Translations under genes and position numbers: made by a program
Notes under the pieces: generated by a model
The model's database searches: none
Seen by the model: the letters and a program-made list of their open reading frames with translations, nothing else
Told to the model about the DNA's origin: nothing
Assembly (NCBI GenBank): GCA_020434205.1
Contig: JAGRBF010000159.1
Coordinates: forward strand, 1-43,495
Direction of reading: 5' to 3'
Length of the DNA stretch: 43,495 nt
From: Calditrichota bacterium
GTDB taxonomy: Bacteria; Calditrichota; Calditrichia; RBG-13-44-9; J075
Shown here: piece after piece, positions 13,185 through 40,667 of the stretch
How positions within the stretch are numbered: position 1 is the first letter of the stretch
Layout: each line of letters starts with the position of its first letter

Positions 13185-13277
13185 TTTCAGCTCCTTTATG
13201 TTTCTTTGCCGTGAAAGCAGATACATTTTAATTTTCCCTAAGCTTTGCCTGGTTTTCGAGGCAATGAAAACTTTCAA

Positions 13278-14018: not shown

Positions 14019-14109
14019 GTAGCCGTCTCTCGCTCTCCAACATCCCGATTGCCTTCATTGATACTCCCCAAGGACTTTTTACCGCCCGCGCTTAATTTTT
14101 GGCAATGGT

Positions 14110-15108: not shown

Positions 15109-15186
15109 TTTTTCTCCCTTTCTTTTGATCCTCAGGCCATGCTGAAGGTTTGCCAGCCATGTCTCTCAGACATTCATGATGAACAT

Positions 15187-21099: not shown

Positions 21100-21117
21100 G
21101 CAGGGCCACATTTTGAT

Positions 21118-21152
21118 CCCCTAACCCCCTTAAGAAGGGGGAATTAAAGGGG
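21118..21152 (+). promoter_or_regulatory. GC hairpin in the SNF2-methyltransferase intercistronic gap
   Basis: CCCCCTT-aag-AAGGGGG (21125-21141) is a perfect 7-bp stem. It is nested in an outer CCCCT/AGGGG pair (21118-21122 / 21148-21152). No downstream T-run, so it is not a classical terminator. Confidence 0.3.
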
Positions 21153-21183
21153 GTCAAAACCAGAGCAGAAACAAGGAAGGCTA

Positions 21184-25881: not shown

Positions 25882-28800
25882 TCCCCGCCATTCTCAGCCG
25901 TCAGGTGCGCCAGGGCATCCGGGATTTCCTGCTCACCACCTTCCCGGTTTCTACCCCGCTTTTCCGGGAAACCCTGCCACAACTGCTGGAGGATGAGGAG
26001 GCCCTCTTTAAGGGACCCTATCTTTCCCTCAAACGCCCCTTCCGGGCCGCGGCGGATGCCGGCCAGCCCTTCACCGGGTTTGAGCCCGGTTTTACCGCCC
26101 ACCGCCACCAGGCCCGGGCCTTTGCCCGCCTGAATGGCGAGGCTCCCCGCTCCACCCTCATCGCCACAGGGACCGGCTCCGGGAAAACGGAGAGCTTTCT
26201 TTTCCCGGTTCTGGAGCATTGTTACCGAAATCGCGAAAAAGGGGGCATTAAGGCCATCCTCATTTATCCCATGAACGCCCTGGCCAACGACCAGGCCCGC
26301 CGCCTGGCGCGTTTTGTGCACCGGGAACCCCGGCTGCGCGGAAGCCTGCGGGCCGGCCTTTACATCGGCGGCAAGGGGGAGCGCAGCAACAAGGAAATGA
26401 CCGCGGAGAATGTGATCACCGATCGTTTTCGTCTGCGCGACCAGCCCCCGGATATTTTGCTCACCAACTACAAGATGTTGGACTACCTGCTGGTGCGTCC
26501 CGGAGACCAGGCCCTGTGGCGGCACAATGCTCCGGAAACCCTGCAATATCTGGTGGTAGACGAATTGCACACCTTCGACGGGGCCCAGGGTACCGATCTG
26601 GCCTGCCTGCTTCGTCGACTCAAGCAGCGCCTTAAAACCCCCGCCGGACATCTGTGTTGCGTGGGCACCTCCGCCACCCTCGGTGGGGAAAAAGAGGCCT
26701 CGCGGCTGCTGGATTACGCCCGGGATATTTTTGGGGAGCCTTTCGATGGGCAGGCGATTATCAATGAGGATTTGCTGAGTAGCGCCGAATTCCTGGCCGG
26801 CAGCCCCATTCGCTACCGGGAGATACCCGATGCCGCCGGGGGACTTTTGCCCGGGGAGGCCCATACCCCCTACGCTTATCTGGCCGATCAGTACCGGCTG
26901 TGGTTTGGAGAAGAGGCCCCCGCAGCCCCGGAGGAACTGGCAACGGCATTGCCGCAAAAACTGCGCGAGCACCAGTTCCTGCGCTACCTGCTCAACATTC
27001 TGGAGAAGGGACCCCGTCCGGTGGGCGAAATCGGGGCGGAGCTATCCCTGCTGGTGCCGGAATTTGGGGCGGCATCCCCGCAGGAGCGGGCCAAGCTGCT
27101 GGACAGCTTTGTGGCGCTCATCTCCGCCGCCCGGATAAACAATGGGCAAGGCCAGCTTCCCTTCCTGGAGGTCCGCTACCAACTGTGGCTGCGGGAGCTG
27201 CGGCGTATGGTGGTTTCGGTTGCCCAAAGGCCGCAAATGGCCTTCTCAGACGATCTGGATCAGGACGCCCTGGCGGGTCACCTCCCGGTGGTGCACTGCC
27301 GGGAATGCGGGGCCATGGGTTGGGGAGCTCTGAAACGCCAGCAGGACACCCGCTTTTCCCCGGACCTGCAGCGCTTCTACCAATCTTTTTTTGCGGGCGG
27401 ACCCACCCTGCACTTTGTCTTTCCGGTTCAGCATAGCGAAGGGCGGGGGCAGGGCATTTGCGGTCACTGCCTGCACCATTACCAGGGGAGCCCCCAAAAC
27501 TGTCCCGCCTGCGGCAAAGCCGACCGGCTCATAGCCGCGGAGGTCTTTAACGAACGCCGCACCCGCAATAACCGCGTTTATGTGGATAAACACTGTCCTT
27601 ATTGCCAGGCGCACGACGGGCTTACCATTCTGGGCTCCCGGGCCGCCAGTCTGATCAGCGTGGCCATCAGTCAACTGTTTGCCTCGCCCTTCAACGACGA
27701 CAAAAAACTCCTCACCTTTTCCGATTCGGTTCAGGATGCCGCCCACCGGGCCGGTTTCTTTGGGGCCCGCACCTTTCGCTTCAACTTTCGCGCCGCCCTC
27801 CAGCAATGTTTGCAGGATCAGGAACAGCCGCCTTCCCTGGCCGCCATGCCCGGGGTTTTCGAGCAGTATTGGTCCCGGCGCCTGGATGGAAATGCCTATC
27901 TCAGCACCTTTTTTCCGCCGGATCTGCACTACCGCGAGGATTACGGATACCTGCGGCAACACGGAAAGCTGCCCAGGGGATCGGAACTACCGGAGCTGCT
28001 GCGGCAGCGCCTTTCCTGGGAAGTTAATTCCGAATACGGCTACCGGGCCCGGGTGGGGCGCACCCTGGAGAAGAGCGGGGCTTCGATAGCCCTGCCCGAT
28101 CCGCAGCGCCTGCAAAAAGCGCTTGAGAACCTGCTGCCCATGTTGCGCGAAGAAATTGGGGGCCTGCGGGAGCTGGACCAGACCGCCCTGGCGCGCCTCA
28201 TCGGTGGATTTATTGCCCAGTTGCGCGTAAAAGGAGGTGTTTTTCATCCCGGCCTGGAAAGCTATATCCGGGAGGGCGCCAATACCTTTATGCTGCGGCG
28301 TGTTCCTTACATGCCGCCGTTTGCGCCAGGGGGGCGCACCCCGGTTTTCCTGAGCCAGATCCCCTTTGGTTACGAACGCTTCGACGTGCTGTTGCGCGCC
28401 GGCAGCGTTACCTGGCACAGCCAGTGGGCGGTCAAAAATTTACTGCCCTTCGGCCAGCAGTTCGATCCGTTTATGGGGGATATCTACCGGTTATTGCTCC
28501 GGGAATTGGTTGCCCGGGAAATATTGCAGGAAGAGACGGTGCATGGGGTATCCGTCTGGGGACTGCGCGGGGAGGCCCTCCAACTGACCACTGCGGTGCG
28601 GCAACTGCGCTGCGACACCTGTGGGCACGACATGTCCGCCGCCACCGGGGAAGACCATTGGGTAGGAATGCCCTGTCTGCGTTTTAACTGCAGGGGGCAT
28701 TATCAGGCGGAGCCTTCCGGCGAGGACTACTATCGCCGCCTTTACAGCACCGGGGATATTCAGCGTATCTTTGCCGAGGAGCACACCGGGCTGCTGGGCC

Positions 28801-31800
28801 GTGAGGAACGCGAGGAATTGGAGCAGCACTTCGAGCAGCAGAACCATCCCTGGGATCCCAATCTGCTCTCCTGCACCCCAACCCTGGAGATGGGGGTGGA
28901 TATCGGAGCGCTTTCCTCGCTGGTGCTCTGTTCGGTGCCGCCCCGCCAGGCCAACTACCTGCAGCGCATCGGCCGGGCCGGTCGGCGGGATGGCAATAGC
29001 TTTATCCTGACTGTCGCCAATGGCGATCCCCACGATCTCTATTTCTACCAGCAGCCGGAAGAAATGATGGCCGGTGCGGTGGAGCCCCCGGGCGTTTTCC
29101 TGAATGCCCCGGCAGTCCTGGAACGCCAGTTTATCGCCTTCACCTTCGAAAGATTCATCCTGGCCGGCGTCCCGACCCCCGCCTTGCCGGCTAAAATCCG
29201 TCCGGTGCTCAACAGGTGGGAGAAGGAAGAACCGGGTAATTTCCCCTACAACTGGCTGGCCTTTTGCGAATCCTCGCAGGGAATTTTGCTTACTGACTTT
29301 TTCAACCTCTTTCAGGATGCCCTGGACGAGACGGCCAGAAAACACCTTTCTCAGTTTGTAAAAACCGACCGCCGTGAGGGCCTGCAATCCAGTATTAAAG
29401 CCGCTTTTGCCGATGCCGCGGAGGAGATCCGGGTGCATCGCCAGCGGGTTCAGCAACTCAACCGGAAAATCCGGGAAATGGAAAACAGTCCGGTTCGGGA
29501 CCAAAACTACGATGCCAATCTCAACGAACTAAAACGCGAAAAGCAGGCCCTTAACGGGATTATCAACAAAATTGCCGATAAGGACCTGTTTAGCTTTCTC
29601 AGTGAAGAAGGACTGCTGCCCAATTACGCTTTTCCCGAGCCGGGGGTGCAACTGCGTTCGGTTATCTATCGGAAAAAGAGACGCGCCGATGCGGAGGGCG
29701 CCTATCAGGTGAGCGTCTACGAATACGAGCGCCCCGGGGCCAGCGCCATTCGCGAGCTTGCCCCCGAGAATCAGTTCTACGCCGGGGGGCGCCGGGTGAG
29801 CGTGGATCAGATAAATCTCCAGCTTTCCCCGGAGGAATTCTGGCGGTTTTGCGACAATTGCAGCCACATGGCCCGGGATCTGGGCGGGGAAGTATCGCCC
29901 ACCTGTCCCACCTGTGGGAGCGAAAGGTGGTCCGACCACAATCAGGTCCGTTCCCTGATTCGCATGAAGCAGGTGATGGCCAATACCAGCGACCGGGAAA
30001 GCCGTATCGGGGACGACAGCGACGATCGAAGCCCTGCCCACTATCACAATCATTTGGTGGTCGAAATCGGCAGGGACAAAGTTGCCAGCGCCTTTCACAT
30101 TCCCGGCGACCAGGTGCCCTTCGGATTCGAATACATCTCCCGTTTCACCCTTCGCGAGATCAACTTCGGCCATCGCGAGCAAGCCGGCAACCCGATCCGC
30201 ATTGCCGGGCAGGATACCGGGATCAACGGCTTTCAGGTTTGCCGGGCCTGCGGAAAAGTCCGAAAAGCCGGGGACGCCGAAGGCCGCTGGCACGCCTTCG
30301 GTTGCCGTTATCGCGGCTTAACCGACGACGATTCTACCCTGAGCGGGTTTTACCTCTACCGCGAATTTCAGTCCGAAGCCCTGCGCATTCTGGCCCCGGC
30401 CCTGCTGAGAGAGGATTCCGGTTCGGTGGTCAACTCGCTGCGCGCAGCCCTTTTCCTGGGGCTTCGGGAGCATTTCCGGGGAGACATCGAGCACCTGCAG
30501 ATCGCCCAGCAGTTTGAACCCTACGATGGCCCGGATTTTCAGCGCCATTACCTGGTGCTCTACGACCGCGTTCCCGGGGGAACCGGCTATCTTAAGGAAT
30601 TAATGCGTGATAATTACCCCCTCCTGGATGTGCTGCAAAAAGGGCTGGATAAACTCAAGGCCTGTCCCCGATGCAGCCGTGCTGACGGTCCGGACGGCTG
30701 TTACCAATGTATTTACGCCTATCGTTTTAGCCGCGATATGGCCAATATCTCGCGGCAAAGCGCCATTAACCTGCTCACCGAGATTCTCCGGAACCGCCAT
30801 CAGGTTGGTCCCATCGAAACGGTTGATACCATTTCCCTGAACAACCTTTTGGAAAGCGAACTGGAAAAGCGTTTTGTGGACGGCCTGGCCCGCCTGGCCC
30901 TGGAAAAGGACAATATCCGCCTGGAGAAAGAGATCGTCAATGGCAAGCACGGTTGGCGGCTGCAGGTCGGAGAATCCGTCTATCGCATGGAACCCCAGGT
31001 AAATCTGGGGCCGGAGCAAGGGGTGTCCGAGCGCTGCCGGGCAGACTTTGTGCTTTACCCGATTAAACAAACGCCCGGAAAGCCGGTGGTGCTCTTTACC
31101 GACGGCTTTGCCTATCACGCCGGGGAAACACAGCTAAACCGCCGCCTGGGAGCGGATATGCGTCAGCGTATGGCCATTGTGGACAGCAAAGCCTTCCGGG
31201 TGTGGTCGCTAACCTGGCAGGACCTCGAAAAACTGGAAACCCGCCATCCGGAACATTTTGAGAACCTGCTTAAATCGCCTCCCCACCAGCTTTTTCAGGT
31301 TTACAGTAACCAACCGGGTCGACAAGAACATCAGCGCTTGCTCCAGCTGGGCTCCATGGATCTTCTGATCGCCCATCTGGAAAAGCCTCAGGCCGGGTAT
31401 TGGCTGGCGGTTGCGCACCTGGCCGTTCTGGGCATGGTGGTGGCGGAAGGTTTGGTGAACATCAGTAAGGACACCTATCGCAAGGCTTTGCAAGAGGCCG
31501 TGGCCGCTCCGCTTGATGAGCAAAAGCTGGACGTCCCTTTAGCCGAAGAGGGAGGCACTTTACTGGGCTGCCGCTGGGTGTTCTCGGGAGAGCAGGAGGG
31601 GGCAACCGTGCTGTTTATGGTGATCAGTCAGAACGATGACATCGTTACCTCGGGTGGGAAAGGCATTCGGCTGCTGGTGCGCCTCTTAGACGAAAAGCCC
31701 ATGCCCCGCGAAAAGTTCCGGCGCCTCTGGAATGGTTATCTGCAGGCCTTCAACCTGCTGCAGTTTTTGCCGGGAGCGCGATTCCTCGCCAGTGAAGGGC

Positions 31801-32165
31801 TTCGTAGCGCCGGGGATCCCGTGGTGGATGAATGGTTGTTTGCCGAGATTGAACCGCAACAGGATGCCCCGCAAATTGAACCCGCCTGGGCGGAGATTCT
31901 GGCCGTCAGCGAACCGGCCTGGCAGGGGGCAATTGAGCAACTCAGCGGCATGTCCGTCCCCCTGCCCATCTGCGGCTACGAACTCATGAACACCGGTGGG
32001 GCGGTTTGCGCTCAGGCTTTCCTGGCCTGGGAAAACGACATGATTGCCATTCTGGCGCCAGATGAAATGGATGGAAAACACCTTTTTGAAGAAGCCGGCT
32101 GGCAGGTTTTTGCTATCGACGCTCTGGTGAGAGATCCGGCAATGCTGTCAGGCCTTTTCAAATAA
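25878..32165 (+). CDS. 2095-aa DEAD/DEAH-box helicase fused to a DUF1998 zinc module and C-terminal Vsr/DUF559-like domains (DrmA+DrmB fusion-like, or DruE-like)
   Basis: Start set to ATG 25878 (MIPAILSRQ..; the ORF track's upstream extension overlaps the methyltransferase). Walker A ATGTGSGKTE (26163-26189), DELH (26559-26570), SATLG, ..TPTLEMGVDIG.. and ..QRIGRAGRR... DUF1998-type Cys clusters FCDNCSH..CPTCGS, CRACGKV, YLVLYDRVPGGTGYL and CPRCSRADGPDGCYQC (about 29840-30710). Confidence 0.85.
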   Translation: MIPAILSRQVRQGIRDFLLTTFPVSTPLFRETLPQLLEDEEALFKGPYLSLKRPFRAAADAGQPFTGFEPGFTAHRHQARAFARLNGEAPRSTLIATGTGSGKTESFLFPVLEHCYRNREKGGIKAILIYPMNALANDQARRLARFVHREPRLRGSLRAGLYIGGKGERSNKEMTAENVITDRFRLRDQPPDILLTNYKMLDYLLVRPGDQALWRHNAPETLQYLVVDELHTFDGAQGTDLACLLRRLKQRLKTPAGHLCCVGTSATLGGEKEASRLLDYARDIFGEPFDGQAIINEDLLSSAEFLAGSPIRYREIPDAAGGLLPGEAHTPYAYLADQYRLWFGEEAPAAPEELATALPQKLREHQFLRYLLNILEKGPRPVGEIGAELSLLVPEFGAASPQERAKLLDSFVALISAARINNGQGQLPFLEVRYQLWLRELRRMVVSVAQRPQMAFSDDLDQDALAGHLPVVHCRECGAMGWGALKRQQDTRFSPDLQRFYQSFFAGGPTLHFVFPVQHSEGRGQGICGHCLHHYQGSPQNCPACGKADRLIAAEVFNERRTRNNRVYVDKHCPYCQAHDGLTILGSRAASLISVAISQLFASPFNDDKKLLTFSDSVQDAAHRAGFFGARTFRFNFRAALQQCLQDQEQPPSLAAMPGVFEQYWSRRLDGNAYLSTFFPPDLHYREDYGYLRQHGKLPRGSELPELLRQRLSWEVNSEYGYRARVGRTLEKSGASIALPDPQRLQKALENLLPMLREEIGGLRELDQTALARLIGGFIAQLRVKGGVFHPGLESYIREGANTFMLRRVPYMPPFAPGGRTPVFLSQIPFGYERFDVLLRAGSVTWHSQWAVKNLLPFGQQFDPFMGDIYRLLLRELVAREILQEETVHGVSVWGLRGEALQLTTAVRQLRCDTCGHDMSAATGEDHWVGMPCLRFNCRGHYQAEPSGEDYYRRLYSTGDIQRIFAEEHTGLLGREEREELEQHFEQQNHPWDPNLLSCTPTLEMGVDIGALSSLVLCSVPPRQANYLQRIGRAGRRDGNSFILTVANGDPHDLYFYQQPEEMMAGAVEPPGVFLNAPAVLERQFIAFTFERFILAGVPTPALPAKIRPVLNRWEKEEPGNFPYNWLAFCESSQGILLTDFFNLFQDALDETARKHLSQFVKTDRREGLQSSIKAAFADAAEEIRVHRQRVQQLNRKIREMENSPVRDQNYDANLNELKREKQALNGIINKIADKDLFSFLSEEGLLPNYAFPEPGVQLRSVIYRKKRRADAEGAYQVSVYEYERPGASAIRELAPENQFYAGGRRVSVDQINLQLSPEEFWRFCDNCSHMARDLGGEVSPTCPTCGSERWSDHNQVRSLIRMKQVMANTSDRESRIGDDSDDRSPAHYHNHLVVEIGRDKVASAFHIPGDQVPFGFEYISRFTLREINFGHREQAGNPIRIAGQDTGINGFQVCRACGKVRKAGDAEGRWHAFGCRYRGLTDDDSTLSGFYLYREFQSEALRILAPALLREDSGSVVNSLRAALFLGLREHFRGDIEHLQIAQQFEPYDGPDFQRHYLVLYDRVPGGTGYLKELMRDNYPLLDVLQKGLDKLKACPRCSRADGPDGCYQCIYAYRFSRDMANISRQSAINLLTEILRNRHQVGPIETVDTISLNNLLESELEKRFVDGLARLALEKDNIRLEKEIVNGKHGWRLQVGESVYRMEPQVNLGPEQGVSERCRADFVLYPIKQTPGKPVVLFTDGFAYHAGETQLNRRLGADMRQRMAIVDSKAFRVWSLTWQDLEKLETRHPEHFENLLKSPPHQLFQVYSNQPGRQEHQRLLQLGSMDLLIAHLEKPQAGYWLAVAHLAVLGMVVAEGLVNISKDTYRKALQEAVAAPLDEQKLDVPLAEEGGTLLGCRWVFSGEQEGATVLFMVISQNDDIVTSGGKGIRLLVRLLDEKPMPREKFRRLWNGYLQAFNLLQFLPGARFLASEGLRSAGDPVVDEWLFAEIEPQQDAPQIEPAWAEILAVSEPAWQGAIEQLSGMSVPLPICGYELMNTGGAVCAQAFLAWENDMIAILAPDEMDGKHLFEEAGWQVFAIDALVRDPAMLSGLFK

Positions 32166-32194
32166 AAACTTGTTCCCAAAGCCTTGGATAAAAT

Positions 32195-34333
32195 ATGACT
32201 TCATCTTCAGTCCCAACCAACAAGCCCGTTAACGTTGCCATATCCGTGGACCTGCTCAAGGCTTACGCCGGGATTCCCCGTTCACAGCAGGGCAAAATCC
32301 GGGAGTTCATTGAAAAATTCCAGGAGAATCCCACCTCTCCGGGGATCAACTACGAAAAGATTCAGCAATGGAAAGACCCCAACCTGCGTTCCGTGCGCAT
32401 CGACCAACAATACCGTGGGGTAGTCCTCAAACCCGATAGCGGAAACCTCTTTATGCTCCTTTGGGTGGCTACTCATGACGAAGCATACCAGTGGGGCATG
32501 GACAAGCGCATTAAAATTCATCCCACCACCGGTTCCTTGCAGGTCGTATCCACCGAATTGGTGGAGCCGGAGCCTCAACGTCAGGATAAAGCCCGGGTGC
32601 CAGGACTTTTTGATGCCTACAAAGACCGGCAACTGGCGCGTCTGGGGGTGCCTGAAGAACTGTTGCCGCTGGTGCGCCATATCCGCAACGAGCAGCAATT
32701 GGATGTTCGTTCCCACGAGCTGCCTCAAGAAGTTTATGAGGCCCTGTTGATGCTGGCTGCCGGTTACAGCTATGAGGAAGCGGTGCTGGAAATTGAAGCC
32801 CCTGAACAACCGGTTGATACGGGAGATCTTTCCGAAGCCCTTCAGCATCCGGACTCGCAGCGGCGCTTTCATGTTCTGACCGATGCCCAGGAATTGGCCG
32901 AGATTCTCAATGCCCCGTTAGCGTTGTGGCGGGTTTTCTTACACCCATCCCAGCAGAAGCTGGTCAGTCAACACTTTAACGGTCCCGCAAGGGTGCTGGG
33001 TGGGGCAGGCACCGGAAAAACCGTGGTAGCCATGCATCGCACCAAATTTCTGGCTGGCCGCTGTGGCAAGGGTGAGCGCGTTCTGGTCACCACCTTTACC
33101 CGCAACCTGGCCGAAGACATTCGCACCAATCTCCACAAGATTTGTTCCCTGGAGGAAATGAAGCGCATTGAGGTCATACATTTCGATGGGTGGGTGGCCA
33201 GTTTCCTCCGAAAAAACGGCTACGACTTTCAATTGGTTTACGGCCGGGAGGAATCGGAGGCCTATTGGAACAACGCCCTCAATGTGGCGCCCCCGGCACT
33301 GGATTACGACCGTTCCTTCTATCAGGCAGAGTGGGAACAGGTTATCCAGGCCCAGGGCATTGTCACCCGGGAGGCGTATCTCAAAACGCTTCGCAGTGGC
33401 CGGGGGGTTCGGCTCAGTCGCATTGAGCGCAGCCGCATCTGGCCGGTTTTTGAAGAATACCGCGAGCAGTTAAATGCCCATGGCAAAAAGGAATTCGTTG
33501 ATGCCACCCGGGATGCCCGGCGCCTGTTGGAGCAGCAGGGCGATGTGCTGTCCTACCGCGCCATTGTGGTCGATGAAGCCCAGGACTTTAGCAGTGAGGC
33601 TTTTCGTTTAGTGCGCACCATGATCCCCGAATCGCGGGCTGACCTCAGTAACGACATTTTCATTGTCGGCGATGCCCATCAGCGCATATACGGGCACAAA
33701 GTGGTACTGGGACACTGTGGCATTAACATTCGTGGCCGGGGGCGGCGCCTCAAGATCAACTACCGCACCACCGAAGAAACCCGTCGTTGGGCCATAAATT
33801 TACTGGAAGGCAAGGATATTGACGATCTGGACGGTCAACCCGATCATCAGCGGCTCTACAAATCCTTGATACATGGGGTTGAGCCGGGGCTTCACGGGTT
33901 TGACAGCTTTGCCGCGGAAACCGCCTTTATCCGGGAACACATTTCGCAACTGATCGGGGAGGGGGCATTGCCAGAGGGCATTTGTTTGACTGCCCGGACC
34001 CATTCCTTGCTGAAACAGTATGAGGGGGCCTTATTGTCGGCGGGTTTAGAAACCTATACCATTCGTCATGAGCAGGCCGAAGAAATCCGTCACCCTGGCA
34101 TTCGCTTGGCCACCATGCACCGGGTTAAGGGGATCGAATTCGACCATATGATCATTGCCGGGGTAAATAGCGGCATCGTTCCCCTGGAGATTACCCGGGG
34201 CAGCAGCGAAGACCCTGCCATCGCGGCGGATCACGACCTCAAAGAGCGGGCCCTGCTTTACGTTGCCGCCACCCGCGCCCGCAAAACGGTGGTGATCACC
34301 TGGTTTGGGGCGGGTAGTGAGTTTGTGGTGTAG
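32195..34333 (+). CDS. UvrD/Rep-family (SF1) helicase with N-terminal RelE/ParE-like domain
   Basis: Walker A GGAGTGKTVVAMHR, motif II IVVDEAQDF, C-terminal ..TMHRVKGIEFDHMII.. and ..LLYVAATRARK... The N-terminal ~110 aa read ..FIEKFQENPTSPGINYEKI..LRSVRIDQQYRGVVLKPDSGNLFMLLWVATHDEAY.. (RelE/ParE-like pattern). Confidence 0.85.
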   Translation: MTSSSVPTNKPVNVAISVDLLKAYAGIPRSQQGKIREFIEKFQENPTSPGINYEKIQQWKDPNLRSVRIDQQYRGVVLKPDSGNLFMLLWVATHDEAYQWGMDKRIKIHPTTGSLQVVSTELVEPEPQRQDKARVPGLFDAYKDRQLARLGVPEELLPLVRHIRNEQQLDVRSHELPQEVYEALLMLAAGYSYEEAVLEIEAPEQPVDTGDLSEALQHPDSQRRFHVLTDAQELAEILNAPLALWRVFLHPSQQKLVSQHFNGPARVLGGAGTGKTVVAMHRTKFLAGRCGKGERVLVTTFTRNLAEDIRTNLHKICSLEEMKRIEVIHFDGWVASFLRKNGYDFQLVYGREESEAYWNNALNVAPPALDYDRSFYQAEWEQVIQAQGIVTREAYLKTLRSGRGVRLSRIERSRIWPVFEEYREQLNAHGKKEFVDATRDARRLLEQQGDVLSYRAIVVDEAQDFSSEAFRLVRTMIPESRADLSNDIFIVGDAHQRIYGHKVVLGHCGINIRGRGRRLKINYRTTEETRRWAINLLEGKDIDDLDGQPDHQRLYKSLIHGVEPGLHGFDSFAAETAFIREHISQLIGEGALPEGICLTARTHSLLKQYEGALLSAGLETYTIRHEQAEEIRHPGIRLATMHRVKGIEFDHMIIAGVNSGIVPLEITRGSSEDPAIAADHDLKERALLYVAATRARKTVVITWFGAGSEFVV

Positions 34334-34438
34334 AGGGTAGGGAAAACCAAAACCGCCGGCCCTGGCTGTACGGCCTTTGGCTAAACACTTGCGAAAATAT
34401 TAATTGTTTACTTTGCTATCCGGATTGTGGAGGAAGAA

Positions 34439-35917
34439 ATGGATTCCATGGTAATTTCATATCTAAATTTGGCTGTCGTTTTTGTCTTGGTTCTTCTTAT
34501 TGCGGCTATAATCTCAAAACTGGGAAAATTACATGCGCTACAACTGGCCCATCGGGAGGAGGGGCGGGACTTATCGGATATCGTTGCTAAACTGCAGCCT
34601 GCTCTGCAAAACCTGAATAGCGCTCAGGAACGGGTCGAAGCCAATCTGGCAAGCATGACCCAACGTTTGGAAACAACAGAACAGCTTGGCAACCGATTGG
34701 AGGAGCAACTCTGCGCAATGGATAGAAGCCTGAGCGGGATACTGACGAATGTGGAGCACCTCCAGGAAGAGAGTGATGCCTCGCGCCAGAATCACCGAAC
34801 AGAAATGGCCAGGGTTAACCGGCATCTTGGTGTCCTCGTTCCCGAAATTGCCGGAAATTCCACCCTAGCCCAACTTTCCTTCGACCAGGCCTTGAATCAG
34901 GGAAAAATGCTAGGGGTTATTAAACAACAATCCCTTTCTAAACTGGATCGTAAACTGGGCTCTATTTTTGCCGGAGTGCTGAATGGGCGGAGTGTCCAAT
35001 TGGTAGAAGCCGTTCACCGCATAAAAGATGGCCGGATTGTCATGACCCTGACCAAAGAAGGTCAAAAACTCTTGAATAGCGGTAAAGCAGAGCTCATGTA
35101 CGATAAAGCCGGTAACCTCTTGTCTACCATCCGCGATGCCAAACACAAACAATTTATTAAACAGTTCAAGGGGGTTCCCGCGAACCAGGTCGGGAGATTC
35201 GCAAAGGTTGGCAACCTGATTATTAATGCTGCACATATTGTCTCGGCAGCCGATATGCTGGCACGAATGAAGGTCATGGACGGCAAAATGAATTTATTGA
35301 TTGAAGGACGGCGAATCGACAAAATGGGGGAACTTGAAGCCATTTACCGCCGGGCTCAGGAGATTTTGAACCGGGACGAGTTGGCGCCCCAGGATATCAC
35401 GGAACTGCGTGGCATCCACCTTAATTTGATGAAATTGCGGGTGACCTGGGTCCGTGAGGTATCGTACCGCCTGGATCAAATTGAAGATCCCAAAAACAGA
35501 AATTTCTTCGCTCGTAATCTGGGTCTTTTGGAAAAAACCCGAAATCAGGATCAGAGCATCCGTCAAAAAGTTAGTGATTTTGAACAGGAGCTCTTTCTCA
35601 TCGACTTTACAATAGTATTTGACGTTACCCTCTGCAGTTTTTTGGAGATTTCCTTGAAGCTGGACCAGGATTTGGACCAGCTTAAGCGAATAGAGAAGGA
35701 ACTGGCTTCAAAAGTTAACTACCTGACCGGAAAGTATGAGAATTTTTCGCTGGACGAGCCACTAGCCATAATGCAGCAGGTTTTACAGCGCACCAAACAT
35801 CTTATGCCCATCGCCACGGGCGAAAACGCTCTGGTGCAAATAGAAGAGACTGGAACAACAGTCGAAGACCCCGGCGGGTCGGAGGCTTATGGGCCGGAAA
35901 TTTTGCAGGCGGAATAG
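34439..35917 (+). CDS. N-terminally membrane-anchored coiled-coil protein, unknown function
   Basis: Start set to ATG 34439 (GGAGG 5 nt upstream). TM helix ISYLNLAVVFVLVLLIAAIISKL is followed by ~100 aa of heptad-like Q/E/L-rich sequence and then an uncharacterised domain. Confidence 0.6.
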   Translation: MDSMVISYLNLAVVFVLVLLIAAIISKLGKLHALQLAHREEGRDLSDIVAKLQPALQNLNSAQERVEANLASMTQRLETTEQLGNRLEEQLCAMDRSLSGILTNVEHLQEESDASRQNHRTEMARVNRHLGVLVPEIAGNSTLAQLSFDQALNQGKMLGVIKQQSLSKLDRKLGSIFAGVLNGRSVQLVEAVHRIKDGRIVMTLTKEGQKLLNSGKAELMYDKAGNLLSTIRDAKHKQFIKQFKGVPANQVGRFAKVGNLIINAAHIVSAADMLARMKVMDGKMNLLIEGRRIDKMGELEAIYRRAQEILNRDELAPQDITELRGIHLNLMKLRVTWVREVSYRLDQIEDPKNRNFFARNLGLLEKTRNQDQSIRQKVSDFEQELFLIDFTIVFDVTLCSFLEISLKLDQDLDQLKRIEKELASKVNYLTGKYENFSLDEPLAIMQQVLQRTKHLMPIATGENALVQIEETGTTVEDPGGSEAYGPEILQAE

Positions 35918-35990
35918 AAAAACAAAAACGAATGGAATCCTTTAATAAAGTTGTTTATACAAAATCAAAATTAGACCCGGAGAATCATCA

Positions 35991-36452
35991 ATGTCTTCTT
36001 CAAACTCCCAGCCACATCCAGAACTGAGTAAAAGCGATTTCTACCACAGTTTGCGCCAGCAGGTTCGTTCCTGGCTACAGAAAGATGGCAAGAAACATAA
36101 ATGGTCCGAATATTTGTTGTTGGCCCCGGACCTGTTTCACCTGCTCTGCAAACTGACCTTCGATAAACGGATCCCGACCTCGGAAAAAGCGAAGCTGGCG
36201 TCGGCAATCGCCTATTTTGTCTCACCGATTGACGTCATCCCTGAAGCTATTTTTGGGGTGGGGGGATATGTGGATGATGTTGCTTTGGCTGCCTTTGTAT
36301 TGAATTCCCTGATGAATAATTCCGATCCGGAAATAGTAAAGGAACACTGGGCTGGCGAGGGTGATGTCTTAGACCTGATTGGGCAGATAATTTCGGTTGC
36401 GGATCAAATGGTGGGAAGTGGGGCTTGGAAAAAATTGAAAGAGATTATCTGA
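35991..36452 (+). CDS. DUF1232 (YkvA-like) domain protein
   Basis: Signature AIAYFVSPIDVIPEAIFGVGGYVDDVALAAFVLN matches the Y..sP.D.IPD...G..DD motif of DUF1232. GGAGA lies 7 nt upstream of the ATG. Confidence 0.7.
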   Translation: MSSSNSQPHPELSKSDFYHSLRQQVRSWLQKDGKKHKWSEYLLLAPDLFHLLCKLTFDKRIPTSEKAKLASAIAYFVSPIDVIPEAIFGVGGYVDDVALAAFVLNSLMNNSDPEIVKEHWAGEGDVLDLIGQIISVADQMVGSGAWKKLKEII

Positions 36453-36480: not shown

Positions 36481-36524
36481 ATCCCCAATAAAATCGGATT
36501 TTCCGTTCCGATTTTATTGGGGAT
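36481..36524. terminator. Perfect 17-bp hairpin between convergent genes (putative bidirectional terminator)
   Basis: ATCCCCAATAAAATCGG (36481-36497), 10-nt loop, CCGATTTTATTGGGGAT (36508-36524). It lies between the 3' ends of 35991..36452 (+) and 36609..37415 (-). No clean U-tract follows on either strand. Confidence 0.5.
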
Positions 36525-36608: not shown

Positions 36609-37415
36609 CTAAAACCGCCGGCCTTTGATATAACGCATCAGGGCCATGGGCAGGAAATCGTCCAGGCGCTCCACTTCCCGGTCGCTCAATTCGATAAGAT
36701 GGATGCCGTTTCGCCGATAACTGGCCACTTTTGCTTCTTTCTTTGCAAGGTAGGCAGGGTCATTCTCCCTACCCCAGAATTCGATGTAAACATCGCCCTC
36801 AGGCAGGTAAAAATCCGGATAGTAAATCTCATTCGTGTTATCCGGCATGATCAGCTTCTTCTCGTAAGCATGAACAAGGCGATGGTGATAAAACCAATTG
36901 TCAATCAATACTTCAGCCCGGGATCGGACGTAATGACCATCCTCGCATAAGAAATTTGCAGGATACTTTTTGCGATAATCATCTTCATCGAAAAGGGCAA
37001 TGGGCCTTGGTGTTGCAGTCTGAGAAATGGTGCCGGCAGGCCTTTTTTTCTCTCCATGGCTATAATCGTTAGCATATTTCTTCCTGGTCTGGGGGCTGTG
37101 GTTGTTTCGTCGCTGTTCCTGAAGTTCCAACAACTCATTCAGATCCGCTTCTATTCGCTCAATCAGATAAGAATCTTCAAAATTTTCATTCAACGTTTCC
37201 GCCATAGCCAGAAAGCGAATCAGGTCCTGGTTGCTAATCCTGGCAGAAGGATTGTTTTTCAGCTCGTCTCTGAAATAGAAGTAAGAATCCCTGATTTCGT
37301 GGCGGGCATAATCGTTGTATTCCCGTTCAATCAGTTCTTGCTTGGTATGAAAACACTTTCTGCACAATGGAAAGCCAAAAGCCTCTTCATCGCAGATAAG
37401 ACATCCATCGCCCAT
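36609..37415 (-). CDS. Zinc-ribbon + PD-(D/E)xK-type nuclease-like protein
   Basis: GGAGG lies 6 nt upstream of the ATG. N-terminal CLICDEEAFGFPLCRKCF (CxxC-x9-CxxC). C-terminal ..DGHYVRSRAEVLIDNWF..YEKKL..IYYPDFYLPEGDVYIEFWG.. matches the S.E ... PDF ... ExW/K arrangement of restriction-endonuclease-fold domains (as at the N-terminus of HelD/helicase IV-like proteins, TnsA-like). Confidence 0.65.
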   Translation of the reverse strand: MGDGCLICDEEAFGFPLCRKCFHTKQELIEREYNDYARHEIRDSYFYFRDELKNNPSARISNQDLIRFLAMAETLNENFEDSYLIERIEADLNELLELQEQRRNNHSPQTRKKYANDYSHGEKKRPAGTISQTATPRPIALFDEDDYRKKYPANFLCEDGHYVRSRAEVLIDNWFYHHRLVHAYEKKLIMPDNTNEIYYPDFYLPEGDVYIEFWGRENDPAYLAKKEAKVASYRRNGIHLIELSDREVERLDDFLPMALMRYIKGRRF

Positions 37416-37586
37416 TTGGCGCCTCCGTGAACCCGTCGAATTTCGTTGCTAAAGATTCGCAATCTTTGATCTTTGAATTAGTGATATCTCCCAACATTTT
37501 CTGCTGAAATTATTCGACAAATGGGATTGGGTAAACAGGAAAAGTGATAAGTTTCGGTTTCATGGCTGATTCGCCCTAAATGGGGA

Positions 37587-39800
37587 TCAAACCTTCCTTA
37601 CCGGGAACTTCTGGGAGTGGAATTTTTTGGTTAAATTATTCTCGGAAATTTTAAACCCGCACTGCCGGTTGCCGCAATAAACGAAACGTTTTCCATTCTT
37701 TTCAAACAAAATAAGCGCGGAACCGCATTCAGGGCAAAACCCCACCGGATTTTCTTCTGCACAGCTTTTGCAGCAGCTGCCACAATTCCGACAAATATAA
37801 CGTTTGTTGCGGCATCGCTGCCGAAGATCCCTTGAGTCAATTATTGTGTAGCAGCCAAAGCCAAGGCAATGGTTAATGTAATAGTCCTTTCCATTCTCGG
37901 GGCAATTGGGAGAGACACAATGGAAAACGGTAACGCGATAAGCTGCCGTGAGCCTCTCTTTAACAAAGGCTTTTTGTTCAGGTGAATACCTGGCGTATTC
38001 AATATTTCTGGCATATTCTAAATTGGGAACCATTAAACTCGAGCATCCGCGACATTCCAGGACCTCAATTATTTCCTTAAGCCGGTTAAAATAACCAGCG
38101 AGCTTTATGGGAAAGTCCTCTCTTGCAGGATCTCCATTTTTCGAATAATGGAACCCAAGGTGCTCAAACCAGTCGTAAATATTGTAATCCCAATAATGCT
38201 TTCCGGTTTGTGGCAAGACCTCAGGGTTAGAGCAAATTTCGCCCCGGCAGAGATACTTCTTACCATCATCTTCATTTTCAAGCCACAAAAACGCCTCGCA
38301 TGAAAGTCCCCGCCGACCCATAGTGGCGCATTGTGGAAAAAGCCGAAAAACCCCTTCTTCATTGATGTCAATCTGCTTTTCTCCCAATGTCGACCAGAGT
38401 TTCGTGGCAAATGCCTCCATGGTCGTTTCAAGGGAATTGCCACTCAATAGCAATTGAAATAGCTCCGCGAGGGCAAAAAATTCAAACTTTGTTTTGAGAC
38501 GGTCGGAGTGAGCGTAAACAGAATAAAATTCCAGATTTTTTTCGAATAAGTGTTTTTTAAAGATATACGGCTCAGCCAGACTCCAAAGCTGTTTATCTTT
38601 GAGCAACTGTTCCAATTTGGGCAAAATTTGCTTTTTTGCAAAAGGAGACAGTTGCTCGTCCTCGCCTCGAAAAATAGTTCTTACAACCTGATCATACCCG
38701 CTTGATAGAGTCTCCCGAACTTCTTTCCCTAAATTTAGCCCCTTTAATTGCAAAGCCAATGCAACGGTTGCCGGGAGTTGATCAATATTCTCCTTGAGGA
38801 ACGTGATTTTAAGGTTGGTCTCCAAAGAAGAAATAAAATTAAAAATAGTCTCTTCATTCTCTTTTAAAATGCCATTTGAAATAAGTTCAAGCTTAACACC
38901 ATTAGCCAGAATACTCTCAATCGATAATCCCAGAATGGGGTGAAAAAAAATCTTGCTCCAGTTGGGAGCATCCCTTATCGCATAGAGAAATCTTTCCAGG
39001 ATTTCAAAACTACTGTTGAGCCTAATGCTAATGGCTTCTATCAGGGTTGTATGTTTATCCGGTTCAGCGAAAAGAAAGCTGAGATAGCCTGGGTGATAAA
39101 TGAGATATTTAACAGGCACAACGCCGTATCTTACCAATTCATGTAAATCAATTGGAGATATTTCCGTCATAAATCTGGAAATATTTTTGTTGATATAATT
39201 GGCGACTTTGGGGTCCTTAAAATAAATTTGTTTTTGAGGCGACTGAAGTAGGAAGGCCAGGTTTTTGGCAGTCAATTTGTTGCAGATTAAAATGGGAAGA
39301 GGTGGGGCAATTTGTTCTTTCCCGGTTAAAAACGTATCAATTTTTTTGAATAGCTCGTCCGGACCATAAAATGAAATGTCATCTTCATTCTGGGCATAAA
39401 GGGCAGGCACCATTTCACAAAATTCGAAAACATTCATTTCGCCCAGAATTTTGGTGGTGATCAATTGTCTTTGGCTTTTTTTGAAATCAAGCTGTGCAAA
39501 AAATCGCTGATGATTCTCCTTATTGGTTCTTAGTAAATTGAAGAAAATCTTCAGGTGATTTAGGTCTTCATTGGCGATGTGAACATTGGCTGCAGCTTTT
39601 TTGCCCTTCCGCTCCACTTCAATAAAAAGTATGATGTCATTGTCGTTGAGGCTTTCCACTCCCTGAAGTTCATTCCTGTGAACGTAAATATTCTCCCCGA
39701 GCATGGATTCTGCAAAACCAAAATTGTTGATGCAATCCAATTTGCGATTATATCCGCCAAACCACTTGACCAACCCAATCTGGTAACCCTTAGCGTCCAT
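37587..39800 (-). CDS. 737-aa paralogue of the 903-aa cold-shock-domain / helical / multi-zinc-ribbon protein
   Basis: GAGGA lies 5 nt upstream of the ATG. N-terminal GLVKWFGGYNRKLDCINNFGFAES is a CSD motif with an insertion. The C-terminal blocks align with the 903-aa protein: CRGEICSNPE / CRGRICSKPN; LAGYFNRLKEIIEVLECRGC / YAGWANRMNEILNRLECRAC; HCLGFGCYTIIDSRD / HCLNPDCSGENNHIIDSRD; CPECGSAL / CPKCGEIL. Confidence 0.7.
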   Translation of the reverse strand: MDAKGYQIGLVKWFGGYNRKLDCINNFGFAESMLGENIYVHRNELQGVESLNDNDIILFIEVERKGKKAAANVHIANEDLNHLKIFFNLLRTNKENHQRFFAQLDFKKSQRQLITTKILGEMNVFEFCEMVPALYAQNEDDISFYGPDELFKKIDTFLTGKEQIAPPLPILICNKLTAKNLAFLLQSPQKQIYFKDPKVANYINKNISRFMTEISPIDLHELVRYGVVPVKYLIYHPGYLSFLFAEPDKHTTLIEAISIRLNSSFEILERFLYAIRDAPNWSKIFFHPILGLSIESILANGVKLELISNGILKENEETIFNFISSLETNLKITFLKENIDQLPATVALALQLKGLNLGKEVRETLSSGYDQVVRTIFRGEDEQLSPFAKKQILPKLEQLLKDKQLWSLAEPYIFKKHLFEKNLEFYSVYAHSDRLKTKFEFFALAELFQLLLSGNSLETTMEAFATKLWSTLGEKQIDINEEGVFRLFPQCATMGRRGLSCEAFLWLENEDDGKKYLCRGEICSNPEVLPQTGKHYWDYNIYDWFEHLGFHYSKNGDPAREDFPIKLAGYFNRLKEIIEVLECRGCSSLMVPNLEYARNIEYARYSPEQKAFVKERLTAAYRVTVFHCVSPNCPENGKDYYINHCLGFGCYTIIDSRDLRQRCRNKRYICRNCGSCCKSCAEENPVGFCPECGSALILFEKNGKRFVYCGNRQCGFKISENNLTKKFHSQKFPVRKV

Positions 39801-39854
39801 GAATATCCTCAGCCTTTTCCGCCCTTAAAAAGCTCTTTTCACAGGTGATTTTTT

Positions 39855-40397
39855 CTAATCCACCGTTGCAAAAATTCTGTCAAGGCCTTCAAATTCAGGA
39901 TTCCTCCGAATAAATTCCTTTAATTCTTCCTTGGTCATTGGTTTTATTTTGTTCCTGACTTCCGTAGCAGTTTCGACGTAACCCTCCTCCATCCGTCTCG
40001 GTGAAATAAAAATTTGGGATTTGGTTTTTTGGAAAAGTTTGAAAAACAGGCTGCCGTGGGTGAGAAAGGGTGAAACAAACCAAAATGAACCGCCTCCGGA
40101 ACCGGGAAGATTTTGAAGGCCCTGATAGAAAATTTCCGGGATTTCGAACTTGTTTTCGCCGGTTTGGATGAGGGGCAAACCTAAGTTCTCAATGTGATGA
40201 CGGTTTTCATGGGTAATAGTAAAATAGTCTGGCTCGAAGTCGTAGGTAGAGGAAAAGAAATTGCTCGATGACGTGGTAAAATTTTTGTTTGCAAAGTGAA
40301 CTTCTATTGTGCCGCTCAGGTCGCGGTATTTCTCGACAATTATACACCCGCCATTTTTGCCAACATAAAGCAATGGCGGGTTTGGGATTGTATACAT
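39855..40397 (-). CDS. Hypothetical 180-aa protein immediately upstream of the 737-aa gene
   Basis: ORF track gives 39855..40523. I moved the start to ATG 40397 (AGGAG 6 nt upstream; MYTIPNPPLLYVGK..). It is 54 nt from the 737-aa gene on the same strand. No recognisable motif. Confidence 0.5.
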   Translation of the reverse strand: MYTIPNPPLLYVGKNGGCIIVEKYRDLSGTIEVHFANKNFTTSSSNFFSSTYDFEPDYFTITHENRHHIENLGLPLIQTGENKFEIPEIFYQGLQNLPGSGGGSFWFVSPFLTHGSLFFKLFQKTKSQIFISPRRMEEGYVETATEVRNKIKPMTKEELKEFIRRNPEFEGLDRIFATVD

Positions 40398-40667
40398 ATG
40401 TTGCTCCTGTGTTGATTTCCCCCTTCTGTTAGGATAATTGAAGGGGTATTGTTTTACTCGTAAGGTAAAGAGCTCAAAAAATTTCCCCGGAGCAGGGGAG
40501 GCATCGTGCAGGTAGGCTAACAATCGGTTGGCTGGTCGGATTCCCCACTCCCATCGGAACTTTTCAAGAAAGCATGATTATAGCCTTCAGGTCGTGATTT
40601 ATGCAATGGGGTGGGGAATAAAGTTTATGACAATTGGACCCGGAAAATTGTTTTTGCCTCAATTGCC

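What the first reader, a model, noticed from the sequence alone, without database searches (positions are those of the whole stretch)
36609..40397. Right module: small unknown gene, CSD/zinc-ribbon paralogue and zinc-ribbon PD-(D/E)xK nuclease
The gene order on the minus strand is: 180-aa unknown, 54-nt gap, 737-aa paralogue, 171-nt gap, 268-aa protein. The 268-aa protein has a CxxC-x9-CxxC ribbon and a restriction-endonuclease-fold core (SRAE ... YYPDFYLPEGDVYIEFWG). The string ends at a perfect 17-bp hairpin. It mirrors the left module but uses a different nuclease fold and adds a small extra protein. This supports the idea of a variable-effector system family.
Basis: partly seen in the sequence, partly recalled or inferred. 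Interest (0 to 1): 0.7.

Follow-up and report, generated by a model that had tools for sequence, protein, structure and literature searches.

The report
Two unrelated defence genes, not one system
The three neighbouring genes are real, but they are never found together in other genomes, so they are most likely separate candidate anti-phage genes lying side by side in a defence island rather than one three-part system.

Summary
Three tandem minus-strand ORFs of 180, 737 and 268 aa are separated by 54- and 171-nt gaps and followed by a perfect hairpin (18 bp, not 17). The domain calls also hold. The 268-aa protein has a Zn ribbon, a helical region and a restriction-endonuclease-fold (Vsr/I-Bth0305I-like) domain. 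The 737-aa protein has a cold-shock domain, an all-helical middle and a C-terminal domain with 20 cysteines.

I examined 93 loci (44 lineages) that carry a 737-aa relative. None has a relative of the 268-aa or 180-aa protein, or of the left module's PLD or HNH genes. None of the 10 distinct contexts of 268-aa relatives has a 737-like gene.

The 737-aa family is a large, uncharacterised single-gene family. It is typically embedded in type I R-M (hsdS–X–hsdR) and BREX (pglX–X–pglZ) operons. It occurs in 265 of 5426 complete E. coli genomes and on about 130 Klebsiella plasmids. The 268-aa family shares its nuclease domain with the PADLOC single-gene candidate PDC-S69 and often sits between an HTH repressor and an integrase. 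The 180-aa ORF has no detected relatives in the limited searches run.

The window is a dense defence island in a Calditrichota MAG.

The parts
36481..36524 (.). Perfect 18-bp inverted repeat with an 8-nt loop. Terminator-like on the minus strand. It lies between the 268-aa gene and the convergent DUF1232 gene.
36609..37415 (-). 268-aa gene encoding a Zn ribbon, a helical region and a restriction-endonuclease-fold nuclease. It belongs to a family of more than 1100 relatives. The nuclease domain matches the PADLOC single-gene candidate PDC-S69.
37353..37403 (-). N-terminal Zn ribbon, C5-x2-C8-x9-C18-x2-C21. All four cysteines are invariant in 51 homologues.
36630..36989 (-). Nuclease domain, residues 143-262. 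Invariant residues include D159, H161, R164, E168, D172, E185, K186, D201, E212, W214 and K226.
37416..37586 (.). 171-nt spacer between the 737-aa and 268-aa genes. No terminator-like or promoter-like site was found in it, so co-transcription is possible but was not tested.
37587..39800 (-). 737-aa gene. Member of a large uncharacterised family that is found as a single gene inside or beside other defence systems. NCBI annotates it as 'cold shock domain-containing protein' (MCB0274873.1).
39576..39785 (-). Cold-shock domain, residues 6-75. FGF(A) at 27-30 and (IY)VH at 38-41 resemble the FGF and VH nucleic-acid-binding motifs of cold-shock proteins (motif identity taken from my own knowledge of those proteins).
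38376..39563 (-). All-helical middle region, residues 80-475. Only weak ARM/HEAT-like structural matches. Poorly conserved across the family.
37590..38348 (-). C-terminal cysteine-rich domain, residues 485-737, which defines the family. It has 20 Cys. Invariant: C518, C523, N572, C583, C586, C628, C633, H644, C645, C650, D655, C670, C673. Nearly invariant: R519, R573, Y621, R657. No known fold or family was matched.
39855..40397 (-). 180-aa ORF (alternative TTG start at 40523 gives 222 aa). No family hit and no relative in any locus, plasmid, phage or viral contig examined.
15187..17898 (-). 903-aa second copy of the same family (outside the finding). It lies between a DrmC-like PLD gene (14110-15108) and the DrmD-like first gene of a DISARM-like system (18277-21099).

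Best explanation
The 'right module' is a juxtaposition of independent genes in a defence island of a Calditrichota MAG. It is not a dedicated three-gene system.

Gene 1 (268 aa) is a stand-alone candidate DNA endonuclease. It has an N-terminal Zn ribbon and helical region, which I infer handles target recognition or control. Its C-terminal domain has a Vsr/I-Bth0305I-like restriction-endonuclease fold. I infer that the invariant acidic residues E168, D201 and E212 bind the catalytic metal. Its family moves on its own. It often sits between an XRE-type repressor and an integrase of integrated elements. Its nuclease domain matches that of the unvalidated PADLOC candidate PDC-S69.

Gene 2 (737 aa) belongs to a large uncharacterised family with a cold-shock domain, a helical solenoid and a multi-zinc C-terminal domain. 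Elsewhere the family occurs as a single gene inserted into type I R-M (hsdS-X-hsdR) and BREX (pglX-X-pglZ) operons, or next to other defence systems. In this window its two copies flank a DISARM-like system. I infer that it binds single-stranded RNA or DNA through the cold-shock domain and acts on its own as an additional defence layer. One possibility is a back-up that fires when methylation-based systems are inhibited, as PrrC does. This step is speculative.

Gene 3 (180 aa) has no detected relatives and no assignable role.

Shown: gene structures, folds, family sizes, genomic contexts and lack of co-occurrence. Inferred: nuclease activity, nucleic-acid binding and defence function.
For: No co-occurrence:
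- 0 of 93 loci (44 lineages at 80% identity) with a 737-aa relative hold a 268-aa, 180-aa, PLD, HNH or 330-aa relative.
- No other window ORF of 80 aa or more has a meaningful homologue in those neighbourhoods.
- No 737-like or 180-like gene was found by HMM in seven contexts of 268-aa relatives. The called genes of three further contexts show none either.

Contexts of the 737-aa family:
- Type I R-M, in the order HsdM-HsdS-(YecA-like)-X-HsdR-peptidase.
- BREX PglX/PglZ/BrxL.
- Next to Avs4, Mokosh, Tiamat, a LeoBC-like dynamin, a retron reverse transcriptase and a MotA/ExbB-type proton-channel gene that I read as Zorya ZorA-like.
- 265 of 5426 complete E. coli genomes and about 130 Klebsiella conjugative plasmids.
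- Family size: 913 clusters at E <= 1e-3.
- Most non-embedded copies are followed by opposite-strand genes.

Contexts of the 268-aa family:
- HTH_3-X-integrase in four independent contigs.
- Solitary in the others.

Folds.

The window is a defence island. It holds a TPR-CHAT protein, an AriA/NsnB-like ATPase, a DISARM-like block and a GajB-like helicase. The concept of embedded single-gene defence candidates, and PDC status, come from bioRxiv 10.1101/2024.01.29.577857 and PMC12988326.
Against: - The three genes are co-oriented with short gaps and no detectable terminator between them, so they may be co-transcribed.
- Both copies of the CSD family in this window are followed by a co-oriented nuclease gene.
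- The 737-aa family has no recognisable catalytic domain, so it could need a partner.
- The loci sampled were found with peptide patterns from the 737-like subfamily. The more distant 903-like subfamily was not sampled.
- Many metagenomic contigs are short.
- No function was tested experimentally. PDC-S69 itself is unvalidated.
Confidence: 0.7

Rival explanations
1. First reader's model. The CSD/zinc protein is a sensor that works with the adjacent nuclease as its effector, plus a small accessory protein. The 903-aa/PLD and 737-aa/PD-(D/E)xK pairs are two variants of one variable-effector system family.
For: - Tandem, co-oriented genes with 54-nt and 171-nt gaps and no terminator-like site between them.
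- Both copies are followed by a nuclease gene.
- The family has no recognisable enzymatic domain.
Against: - 0 of 93 family loci have a relative of either nuclease or of the 180-aa protein.
- None of the 10 contexts of 268-aa relatives has a family member.
- The genes immediately upstream of family members are heterogeneous: VWA, DeoR, VasI, YecA-like or unknown.
- The PLD gene resembles DrmC of the neighbouring DISARM-like system.
- No nuclease fusions were seen in 50 diverse members.
Confidence: 0.12
2. The 737-aa family is not a defence effector. It is a post-transcriptional regulator or RNA chaperone that controls expression of the restriction or BREX genes it is embedded among, for example hsdR or pglZ just downstream.
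For: - Cold-shock domains are RNA chaperones and antiterminators (established knowledge).
- The gene typically lies directly upstream of hsdR or pglZ, in the same orientation.
Against: - Many copies lie outside any R-M or BREX operon, next to unrelated systems or followed by opposite-strand genes.
- In this window neither copy is inside an operon of the DISARM-like system.
- A 600-900-aa protein with about five zinc sites is large for such a role.
Confidence: 0.12
3. The 268-aa family is a mobile-element function (control of excision or immunity, in the ImmA-like position between repressor and integrase), not an anti-phage nuclease. Its presence here is a remnant of such an element.
For: HTH_3-X-integrase order in four independent contigs, with the HTH and X genes abutting or overlapping. 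Some relatives carry antirepressor (PF03374) or HRDC N-terminal domains.
Against: - No HTH or integrase gene is next to it in this window.
- Other contexts are solitary.
- There was no match in 50,697 sequenced phage genomes.
- The same nuclease domain is in PADLOC defence candidates PDC-S69 and PDC-S68, which were found embedded in defence systems.
Confidence: 0.12

Closest known systems
PADLOC phage-defence candidate PDC-S69 (single-gene, found by 'guilt-by-embedding', unvalidated)
   Same: The C-terminal nuclease domain of the 268-aa protein matches the PDC-S69 model at E = 2.2e-38 (residues 143-262 against model positions 169-284 of 289). It is a single gene in a defence island.
   Different: Only the last ~116 of 289 model positions match. 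The N-terminal 140 residues (Zn ribbon plus helices) are not covered. The same nuclease domain also matches PDC-S68 and a HEAT_CxxC_PD-DEXK model, so it is a shared domain rather than proof of orthology.
Vsr / I-Bth0305I ('EDxHD') branch of the PD-(D/E)xK restriction-endonuclease fold
   Same: The best structural match of the 268-aa model is the I-Bth0305I catalytic domain (3R3P; TM-score normalised to the target 0.76, probability 1.0). It is followed by PvuRts1I, TnsA, the R2 element's restriction-like endonuclease domain, AbaSI and VRR_NUC. Acidic residues are invariant.
   Different: Foldseek E-values are weak (0.011 at best) and there is no sequence-level match to any PDB chain. The canonical lysine of (D/E)xK is W214 here. 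The homing-endonuclease DNA-binding region (NUMOD motifs, PMC3239194) is absent, and a Zn ribbon is present instead.
PrrC (and other genes embedded in type I R-M, BREX, Hma or DISARM loci, such as BrxU/GmrSD and TgvAB)
   Same: Relatives of the 737-aa protein occupy the hsdS-X-hsdR position. This is the position PrrC holds in its type I R-M locus (my own knowledge; Payne et al., label PrrC as almost exclusively embedded in type I R-M). They also occupy the pglX-X-pglZ slot.
   Different: The family has no ABC-ATPase, anticodon-nuclease or GmrSD domains. In this window the gene is not inside such an operon. Function is untested.
Cold-shock-domain proteins in defence contexts (retron Se72 effector; CSD-containing CoCoNuT components)
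   Same: Both carry an N-terminal cold-shock domain. The 903-aa copy weakly matches the retron Se72 effector and CSD_V models.
   Different: The matches cover only the ~65-residue CSD and fall far below the family cut-off (26 bits against 82). No reverse transcriptase or McrBC genes lie nearby. The helical and zinc-rich domains have no counterpart.

Membership tests
PADLOC PDC-S69 | Significant match to the PDC-S69 profile (PDLC05067) | tested here: met
   E = 2.2e-38, 130.5 bits
PADLOC PDC-S69 | Match over the whole profile (same architecture) | tested here: not met
   Only profile positions 169-284 of 289 align, to residues 143-262. The N-terminal half does not match.
PADLOC PDC-S69 | Functions as a single gene with no obligate partner | tested here: inconclusive
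   No conserved partner other than an HTH repressor and integrase in 4 of 10 contexts. Function itself was not tested.
PD-(D/E)xK / Vsr-like nuclease | Restriction-endonuclease-like alpha/beta core fold | tested here: met
   AF2 model with pLDDT 87. All top Foldseek hits are nucleases of this fold, with probabilities 0.9-1.0. Weak PHROG hits to 'endonuclease' and 'Holliday junction resolvase'.
PD-(D/E)xK / Vsr-like nuclease | Conserved acidic metal-binding residues (helix E, strand D, strand E) | tested here: met
   E168, D201 and E212 are invariant in 51 homologues. Their assignment to the active site is inferred.
PD-(D/E)xK / Vsr-like nuclease | Canonical lysine in the (D/E)xK motif | tested here: not met
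   The motif reads E212-F-W214. The invariant K186 and K226 are possible substitutes.
PD-(D/E)xK / Vsr-like nuclease | Metal-dependent DNA cleavage | not testable with these tools
   Needs a biochemical assay.
Cold-shock domain (PF00313) | Pfam match at the gathering score | tested here: not met
   23 bits against a cut-off of 27 (E = 7.1e-5) for the 737-aa protein and 16.5 bits for the 903-aa protein. 27 of 50 family members match at E <= 0.001; their gathering scores were not checked.
Cold-shock domain (PF00313) | Five-stranded OB-type fold with aromatic FGF and VH motifs | tested here: met
   Foldseek against CspA gives TM-score (normalised to the target) 0.79-0.83, probability 1.0. A family profile against PDB cold-shock proteins gives E = 2.5e-7. 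FGFA is at residue 27 and IYVH at residue 38.
   0 of 93 loci with a 737-aa relative, and 0 of 10 contexts of 268-aa relatives.
PrrC-type embedded abortive-infection gene | Located between hsdS and hsdR of a type I R-M operon | tested here: inconclusive
   Met for enterobacterial and some other relatives. Not met for the window's own two copies.
PrrC-type embedded abortive-infection gene | ABC-ATPase domain plus anticodon-nuclease domain | tested here: not met
   No such domains by Pfam, PADLOC, NCBIfam or fold search.
Retron Se72 effector / CSD_V | Score above the family cut-off, and an adjacent retron reverse transcriptase | tested here: not met
   26.3 bits against a cut-off of 82, for the 903-aa copy only. 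No Pfam or PADLOC search of the window's main ORFs returned a retron reverse-transcriptase match.

The most novel reading that the evidence does not exclude
The family with a cold-shock domain, a helical solenoid and a multi-zinc domain (737-aa and 903-aa proteins here; 'cold shock domain-containing protein' in E. coli and Klebsiella) is a previously undescribed stand-alone anti-phage gene. Its cysteine-rich C-terminal domain would be a new kind of sensor or effector. The family would preferentially ride inside methylation-based systems (type I R-M, BREX, DISARM-like) as a second layer, possibly triggered when those systems are inhibited, as PrrC, PARIS and Ronin are. In this MAG it might also cooperate with the adjacent nuclease.
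Probability: 0.3. Interest if true: 0.7.

Novelty: new member of a known kind. Interest (0 to 1): 0.4.

Why it matters
As a "system", the finding is ordinary: unrelated candidate defence genes packed together in a defence island. This is a useful warning that tandem, co-oriented genes in such islands should not be read as operonic systems without comparative support.

The by-product is more useful. The 737-aa protein belongs to a large, well-conserved family that has not been characterised.
- It is absent from PADLOC-DB v2.
- I found no description of it in the searchable literature.
- It sits in the hsdS–hsdR and pglX–pglZ slots, where embedded defence genes such as PrrC, BrxU and TgvAB are reported.
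- It is present in about 5% of complete E. coli genomes and on many Klebsiella conjugative plasmids.

Its function is therefore directly testable in a model organism.

Tried and rejected
1. Word-indexed protein searches with the 737-aa protein, and later with an 18-sequence alignment, returned only 1-2 hits. The exhaustive HMMER search showed the family is large. Two of the three capped searches were therefore nearly wasted, and no such search was left for the 180-aa protein.
2. The search for related loci with the 50-sequence alignment failed for lack of a conserved stretch. The 18-sequence alignment worked.
3. The 844-aa gene that abuts a 268-aa relative in L008 was tested as a possible 737-like partner. 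It is unrelated and looks like a metallopeptidase.
4. A 182-aa ORF sits upstream of the closest 737-aa relatives (L030, L031), in the same position and of the same size as the 180-aa gene. It is unrelated. Other upstream genes are heterogeneous.
5. Whole-chain Foldseek of the 737-aa model against PDB and BFVD returned only cold-shock-domain hits and weak helical-repeat hits.
6. The C-terminal domain profile shows no relation to the MZB/DUF1998 zinc domain of the neighbouring helicase. Against PDB sequences it gives only a marginal hit to the Pol alpha C-terminal zinc module (E = 0.04).
7. I first read 'EDGH' at residues 158-161 of the 268-aa protein as the EDxHD motif. I dropped this because EDxHD is a composite of dispersed residues (PMC3239194).
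8. Searches with the 180-aa protein against viral contigs, phages and plasmids gave no match.
9. No Rfam family or tRNA gene was found in the window.
10. Literature searches for PDC-S69, and for a cold-shock-domain protein in R-M or BREX loci, found no description.

Full report
**Source and setting.** The window is the full 43,495-bp contig of a Calditrichota (Calditrichaeota) MAG. Identical copies of the region occur in several activated-sludge assemblies.

The window is a dense defence island. It contains:
- a TPR-CHAT protein at 264-3524;
- an AriA/NsnB-like AAA ATPase at 9570-11375;
- the "left module" at 12285-17898;
- a high-GC (0.53-0.62) DISARM-like block, made of a DrmD-like SNF2 helicase (18277-21099), a type IIG/DrmMI-like methylase (21184-25881) and a 2121-aa DruE/DrmA-like helicase with an MZB domain (25800-32165);
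- a UvrD/GajB-like helicase at 32195-34333.

The finding lies in lower-GC sequence (0.41-0.46) to the right of this block.

**Observation.** All stated features are present.
- The ORFs are 268 aa (36609-37415), 737 aa (37587-39800) and 180 aa (39855-40397), all on the minus strand, with gaps of 171 and 54 nt.
- The ribbon C5-x2-C8-x9-C18-x2-C21 and the strings SRAE (165-168) and YYPDFYLPEGDVYIEFWG (198-215) are in the 268-aa protein.
- The hairpin has 18 perfect pairs (36481-36498 / 36507-36524) and an 8-nt loop. It lies 85 nt past the 268-aa stop codon, between that gene and a convergent DUF1232 gene.
- Promoter-like and terminator-like sites in the region are no more frequent than in shuffled sequence, and none falls in either intergenic gap. 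Co-transcription is therefore possible but unproven.
- No Rfam family or tRNA gene is present.

**The 268-aa protein.** It has more than 1100 relatives, many of them full-length at 32-39% identity.
- In 51 aligned homologues the four ribbon cysteines are invariant. So are D159, G160, H161, R164, S165, E168, D172, E185, K186, D201, E212, W214, G215, K226, R250 and D253.
- The AF2 model is confident (pLDDT 87, with a disordered linker at 112-138).
- Its best PDB matches are all restriction-endonuclease-fold nucleases: the I-Bth0305I catalytic domain (TM-score normalised to the target 0.76), PvuRts1I, TnsA, the R2 element's restriction-like endonuclease domain, AbaSI and VRR_NUC. The E-values are weak.
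- PADLOC places the nuclease domain in the single-gene candidate PDC-S69 (E = 2.2e-38). It also matches PDC-S68 and a HEAT_CxxC_PD-DEXK model, but only over the C-terminal ~116 model positions.
- PDCs are candidates predicted because they were found embedded in BREX, DISARM or type I R-M loci. Most are unvalidated.
- Some relatives carry antirepressor or HRDC N-terminal domains instead, so the nuclease is a mobile domain.

**The 737-aa protein.** Word-indexed searches almost missed its family. An exhaustive HMMER search found 913 cluster representatives at E <= 1e-3 and 80 at E <= 1e-30.
- The AF2 model is very confident (pLDDT 91.4, pTM 0.74). It shows a cold-shock domain (6-75), an all-helical region (80-475) and a beta-rich, zinc-rich domain (about 485-737).
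- The cold-shock domain is just below Pfam's cut-off by sequence. By structure it matches CspA clearly (TM-score normalised to the target about 0.8), and FGF- and VH-type motifs are present.
- The C-terminal domain defines the family. It has 20 cysteines. C518, C523, C583, C586, C628, C633, H644, C645, C650, C670 and C673 are invariant, as are N572 and D655. R519, R573, Y621 and R657 are nearly invariant.
- Of the 150 best representatives, 83 have the cold-shock domain. The C-terminal domain is nearly constant, and the N-terminal parts vary.
- Among 50 diverse members, Pfam finds only CSD, HARP (4 members) and IF2_N (1 member). PADLOC finds only the CSD_V model and one PtuA hit.
- No known fold or family was matched for the C-terminal domain. 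The domain could not be searched in isolation.

**Relation to the 903-aa copy.** The two share the cold-shock domain and 30% identity over 246 C-terminal residues. The 737-aa protein is closer to proteins from unrelated metagenomes (38-42% identity over its full length). The two copies therefore look separately acquired, not recently duplicated.

I collected 17 genomic, 75 metagenomic and 1 viral-contig loci that encode a 737-aa relative. They represent 44 lineages at 80% identity. Of these, 62 have at least 1 kb downstream and 74 have at least 700 bp upstream.
- An HMM of the 268-aa family, and phmmer or BLASTP with the 180-aa, PLD, HNH and 330-aa proteins, found nothing in any of them.
- No other window ORF of 80 aa or more has a meaningful homologue in those neighbourhoods.
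- In the other direction, an HMM search found no 737-like and no 180-like gene in seven distinct contexts of 268-aa relatives. Three further contexts show none among their called genes.
- A same-sized ORF upstream of the closest relatives is unrelated. Upstream genes in general are heterogeneous.

**What the neighbours are.**

For the 737-aa family:
- Type I R-M operons, in the order HsdM-HsdS-(YecA-like)-X-HsdR-metallopeptidase (31 enterobacterial loci plus three other lineages).
- BREX loci, usually between pglX and pglZ (7 lineages).
- Elsewhere, next to Avs4, Mokosh MkoA, Tiamat TmtA, a LeoBC-like dynamin, a retron reverse transcriptase, PDC-M26A and a MotA/ExbB-type proton-channel gene that I read as Zorya ZorA-like.
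- The enterobacterial gene is in 265 of 5426 complete E. coli genomes and on about 130 Klebsiella conjugative plasmids. It is always annotated only as "cold shock domain-containing protein".
- In this window the 903-aa copy lies between a DrmC-like PLD gene and the DrmD-like gene of the DISARM-like block. This fits the same pattern and offers an alternative account of the left module's "effector".

For the 268-aa family:
- The only recurrent neighbours are an XRE-type HTH gene directly upstream and a tyrosine integrase directly downstream, in four independent Firmicute contigs.
- No relative was found in sequenced phage genomes.

**Interpretation.** The most economical reading is that two independently mobile, single-gene defence candidates and one ORF with no detected relatives lie side by side in a defence island.
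- For the 268-aa protein I infer metal-dependent DNA cleavage by the Vsr-like domain. The Zn ribbon and helical part would provide recognition or control.
- For the 737-aa family I infer binding of single-stranded nucleic acid by the cold-shock domain and an autonomous role as an extra defence layer. Its habitual position inside type I R-M and BREX loci makes a PrrC/PARIS/Ronin-like back-up role attractive (PrrC and Ronin context). Both of those systems are blocked by the phage protein Ocr (my own knowledge). The back-up role is speculative.

They are listed with their tests in the rival explanations.

**Limits.**
- The loci were retrieved with peptide patterns typical of the 737-like subfamily, so the 903-like subfamily was not sampled.
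- Many contigs are short.
- No experiment was possible.

Noticed in passing
window 18277-34333 (+): High-GC block (0.53-0.62 against 0.40-0.46 in the flanks). It encodes a DrmD-like SNF2 helicase, a type IIG/DrmMI-like methylase, a 2121-aa DruE/DrmA-like helicase with an MZB domain and a C-terminal HNH-like hit, and a UvrD/GajB-like helicase. This looks like a DISARM-like (possibly ARMADA-type) system, probably acquired separately from its surroundings.
   Followed up: partly
window 12285-17898 (-): The left module is a string of four co-oriented genes: the 903-aa CSD-family protein, a 332-aa PLD protein (DrmC/DpdK-like hits), a 246-aa HNH protein and a 330-aa unknown. The PLD may be the DrmC of the adjacent DISARM-like system, which would make the 903-aa gene an 'embedded' gene.
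   Followed up: partly
window 8611-11375 (-): A 601-aa AAA_15/DUF3696 ATPase (NsnB, PDC-M55A and AriA hits), followed by a 320-aa protein with a weak BrxL Lon-like hit. This is probably another two-gene defence candidate.
   Followed up: no
window 264-3524 (-); L002:124-3345: A TPR-CHAT protein lies at the left end of the window. In a longer assembly of the same region, a NACHT plus FGE-sulfatase protein lies just beyond the right end. Both are typical conflict-system architectures.
   Followed up: no
L104:8373-10863 (E. coli A65EC); L120:6280-8770 (Klebsiella plasmid): In Enterobacteria the 737-family gene overlaps an upstream 'YecA family' gene (UPF0149 plus SEC-C zinc motif) by about 40-56 nt. 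This may be a two-gene cassette. The partner was seen only in that lineage.
   Followed up: partly
L015:2333-3958, L051:6275-7900, L056:2052-3710, L060:3356-4978: A ~540-aa protein with no detected Pfam match (tested on the L015 member) or PDB match lies directly beside the 737-family gene in four BREX-associated lineages. It may be a lineage-specific partner or another embedded gene.
   Followed up: partly
L108:6654-9029, L111:6635-9147, L113:6642-9092, L119:5673-8058: Relatives of the 268-aa nuclease sit between an XRE-type HTH gene (abutting or overlapping it) and a tyrosine integrase. This is the position ImmA holds in ICEBs1-type elements (my own knowledge).
   Followed up: partly
L103:4548-11678 (IMG/VR contig); L038: A 1338-aa protein carrying the family's cysteine-rich domain lies directly upstream of a MotA/ExbB-type proton-channel gene that I read as Zorya ZorA-like, followed by a ~216-aa gene (possibly ZorB-like, not annotated). 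The 'viral' contig may be a defence island.
   Followed up: partly
window 34427-36452 (+): A 496-aa, probably coiled-coil and membrane-anchored protein (no Pfam hit) and a 153-aa DUF1232 protein converge on the 268-aa gene and share the hairpin. Their role is unknown.
   Followed up: no
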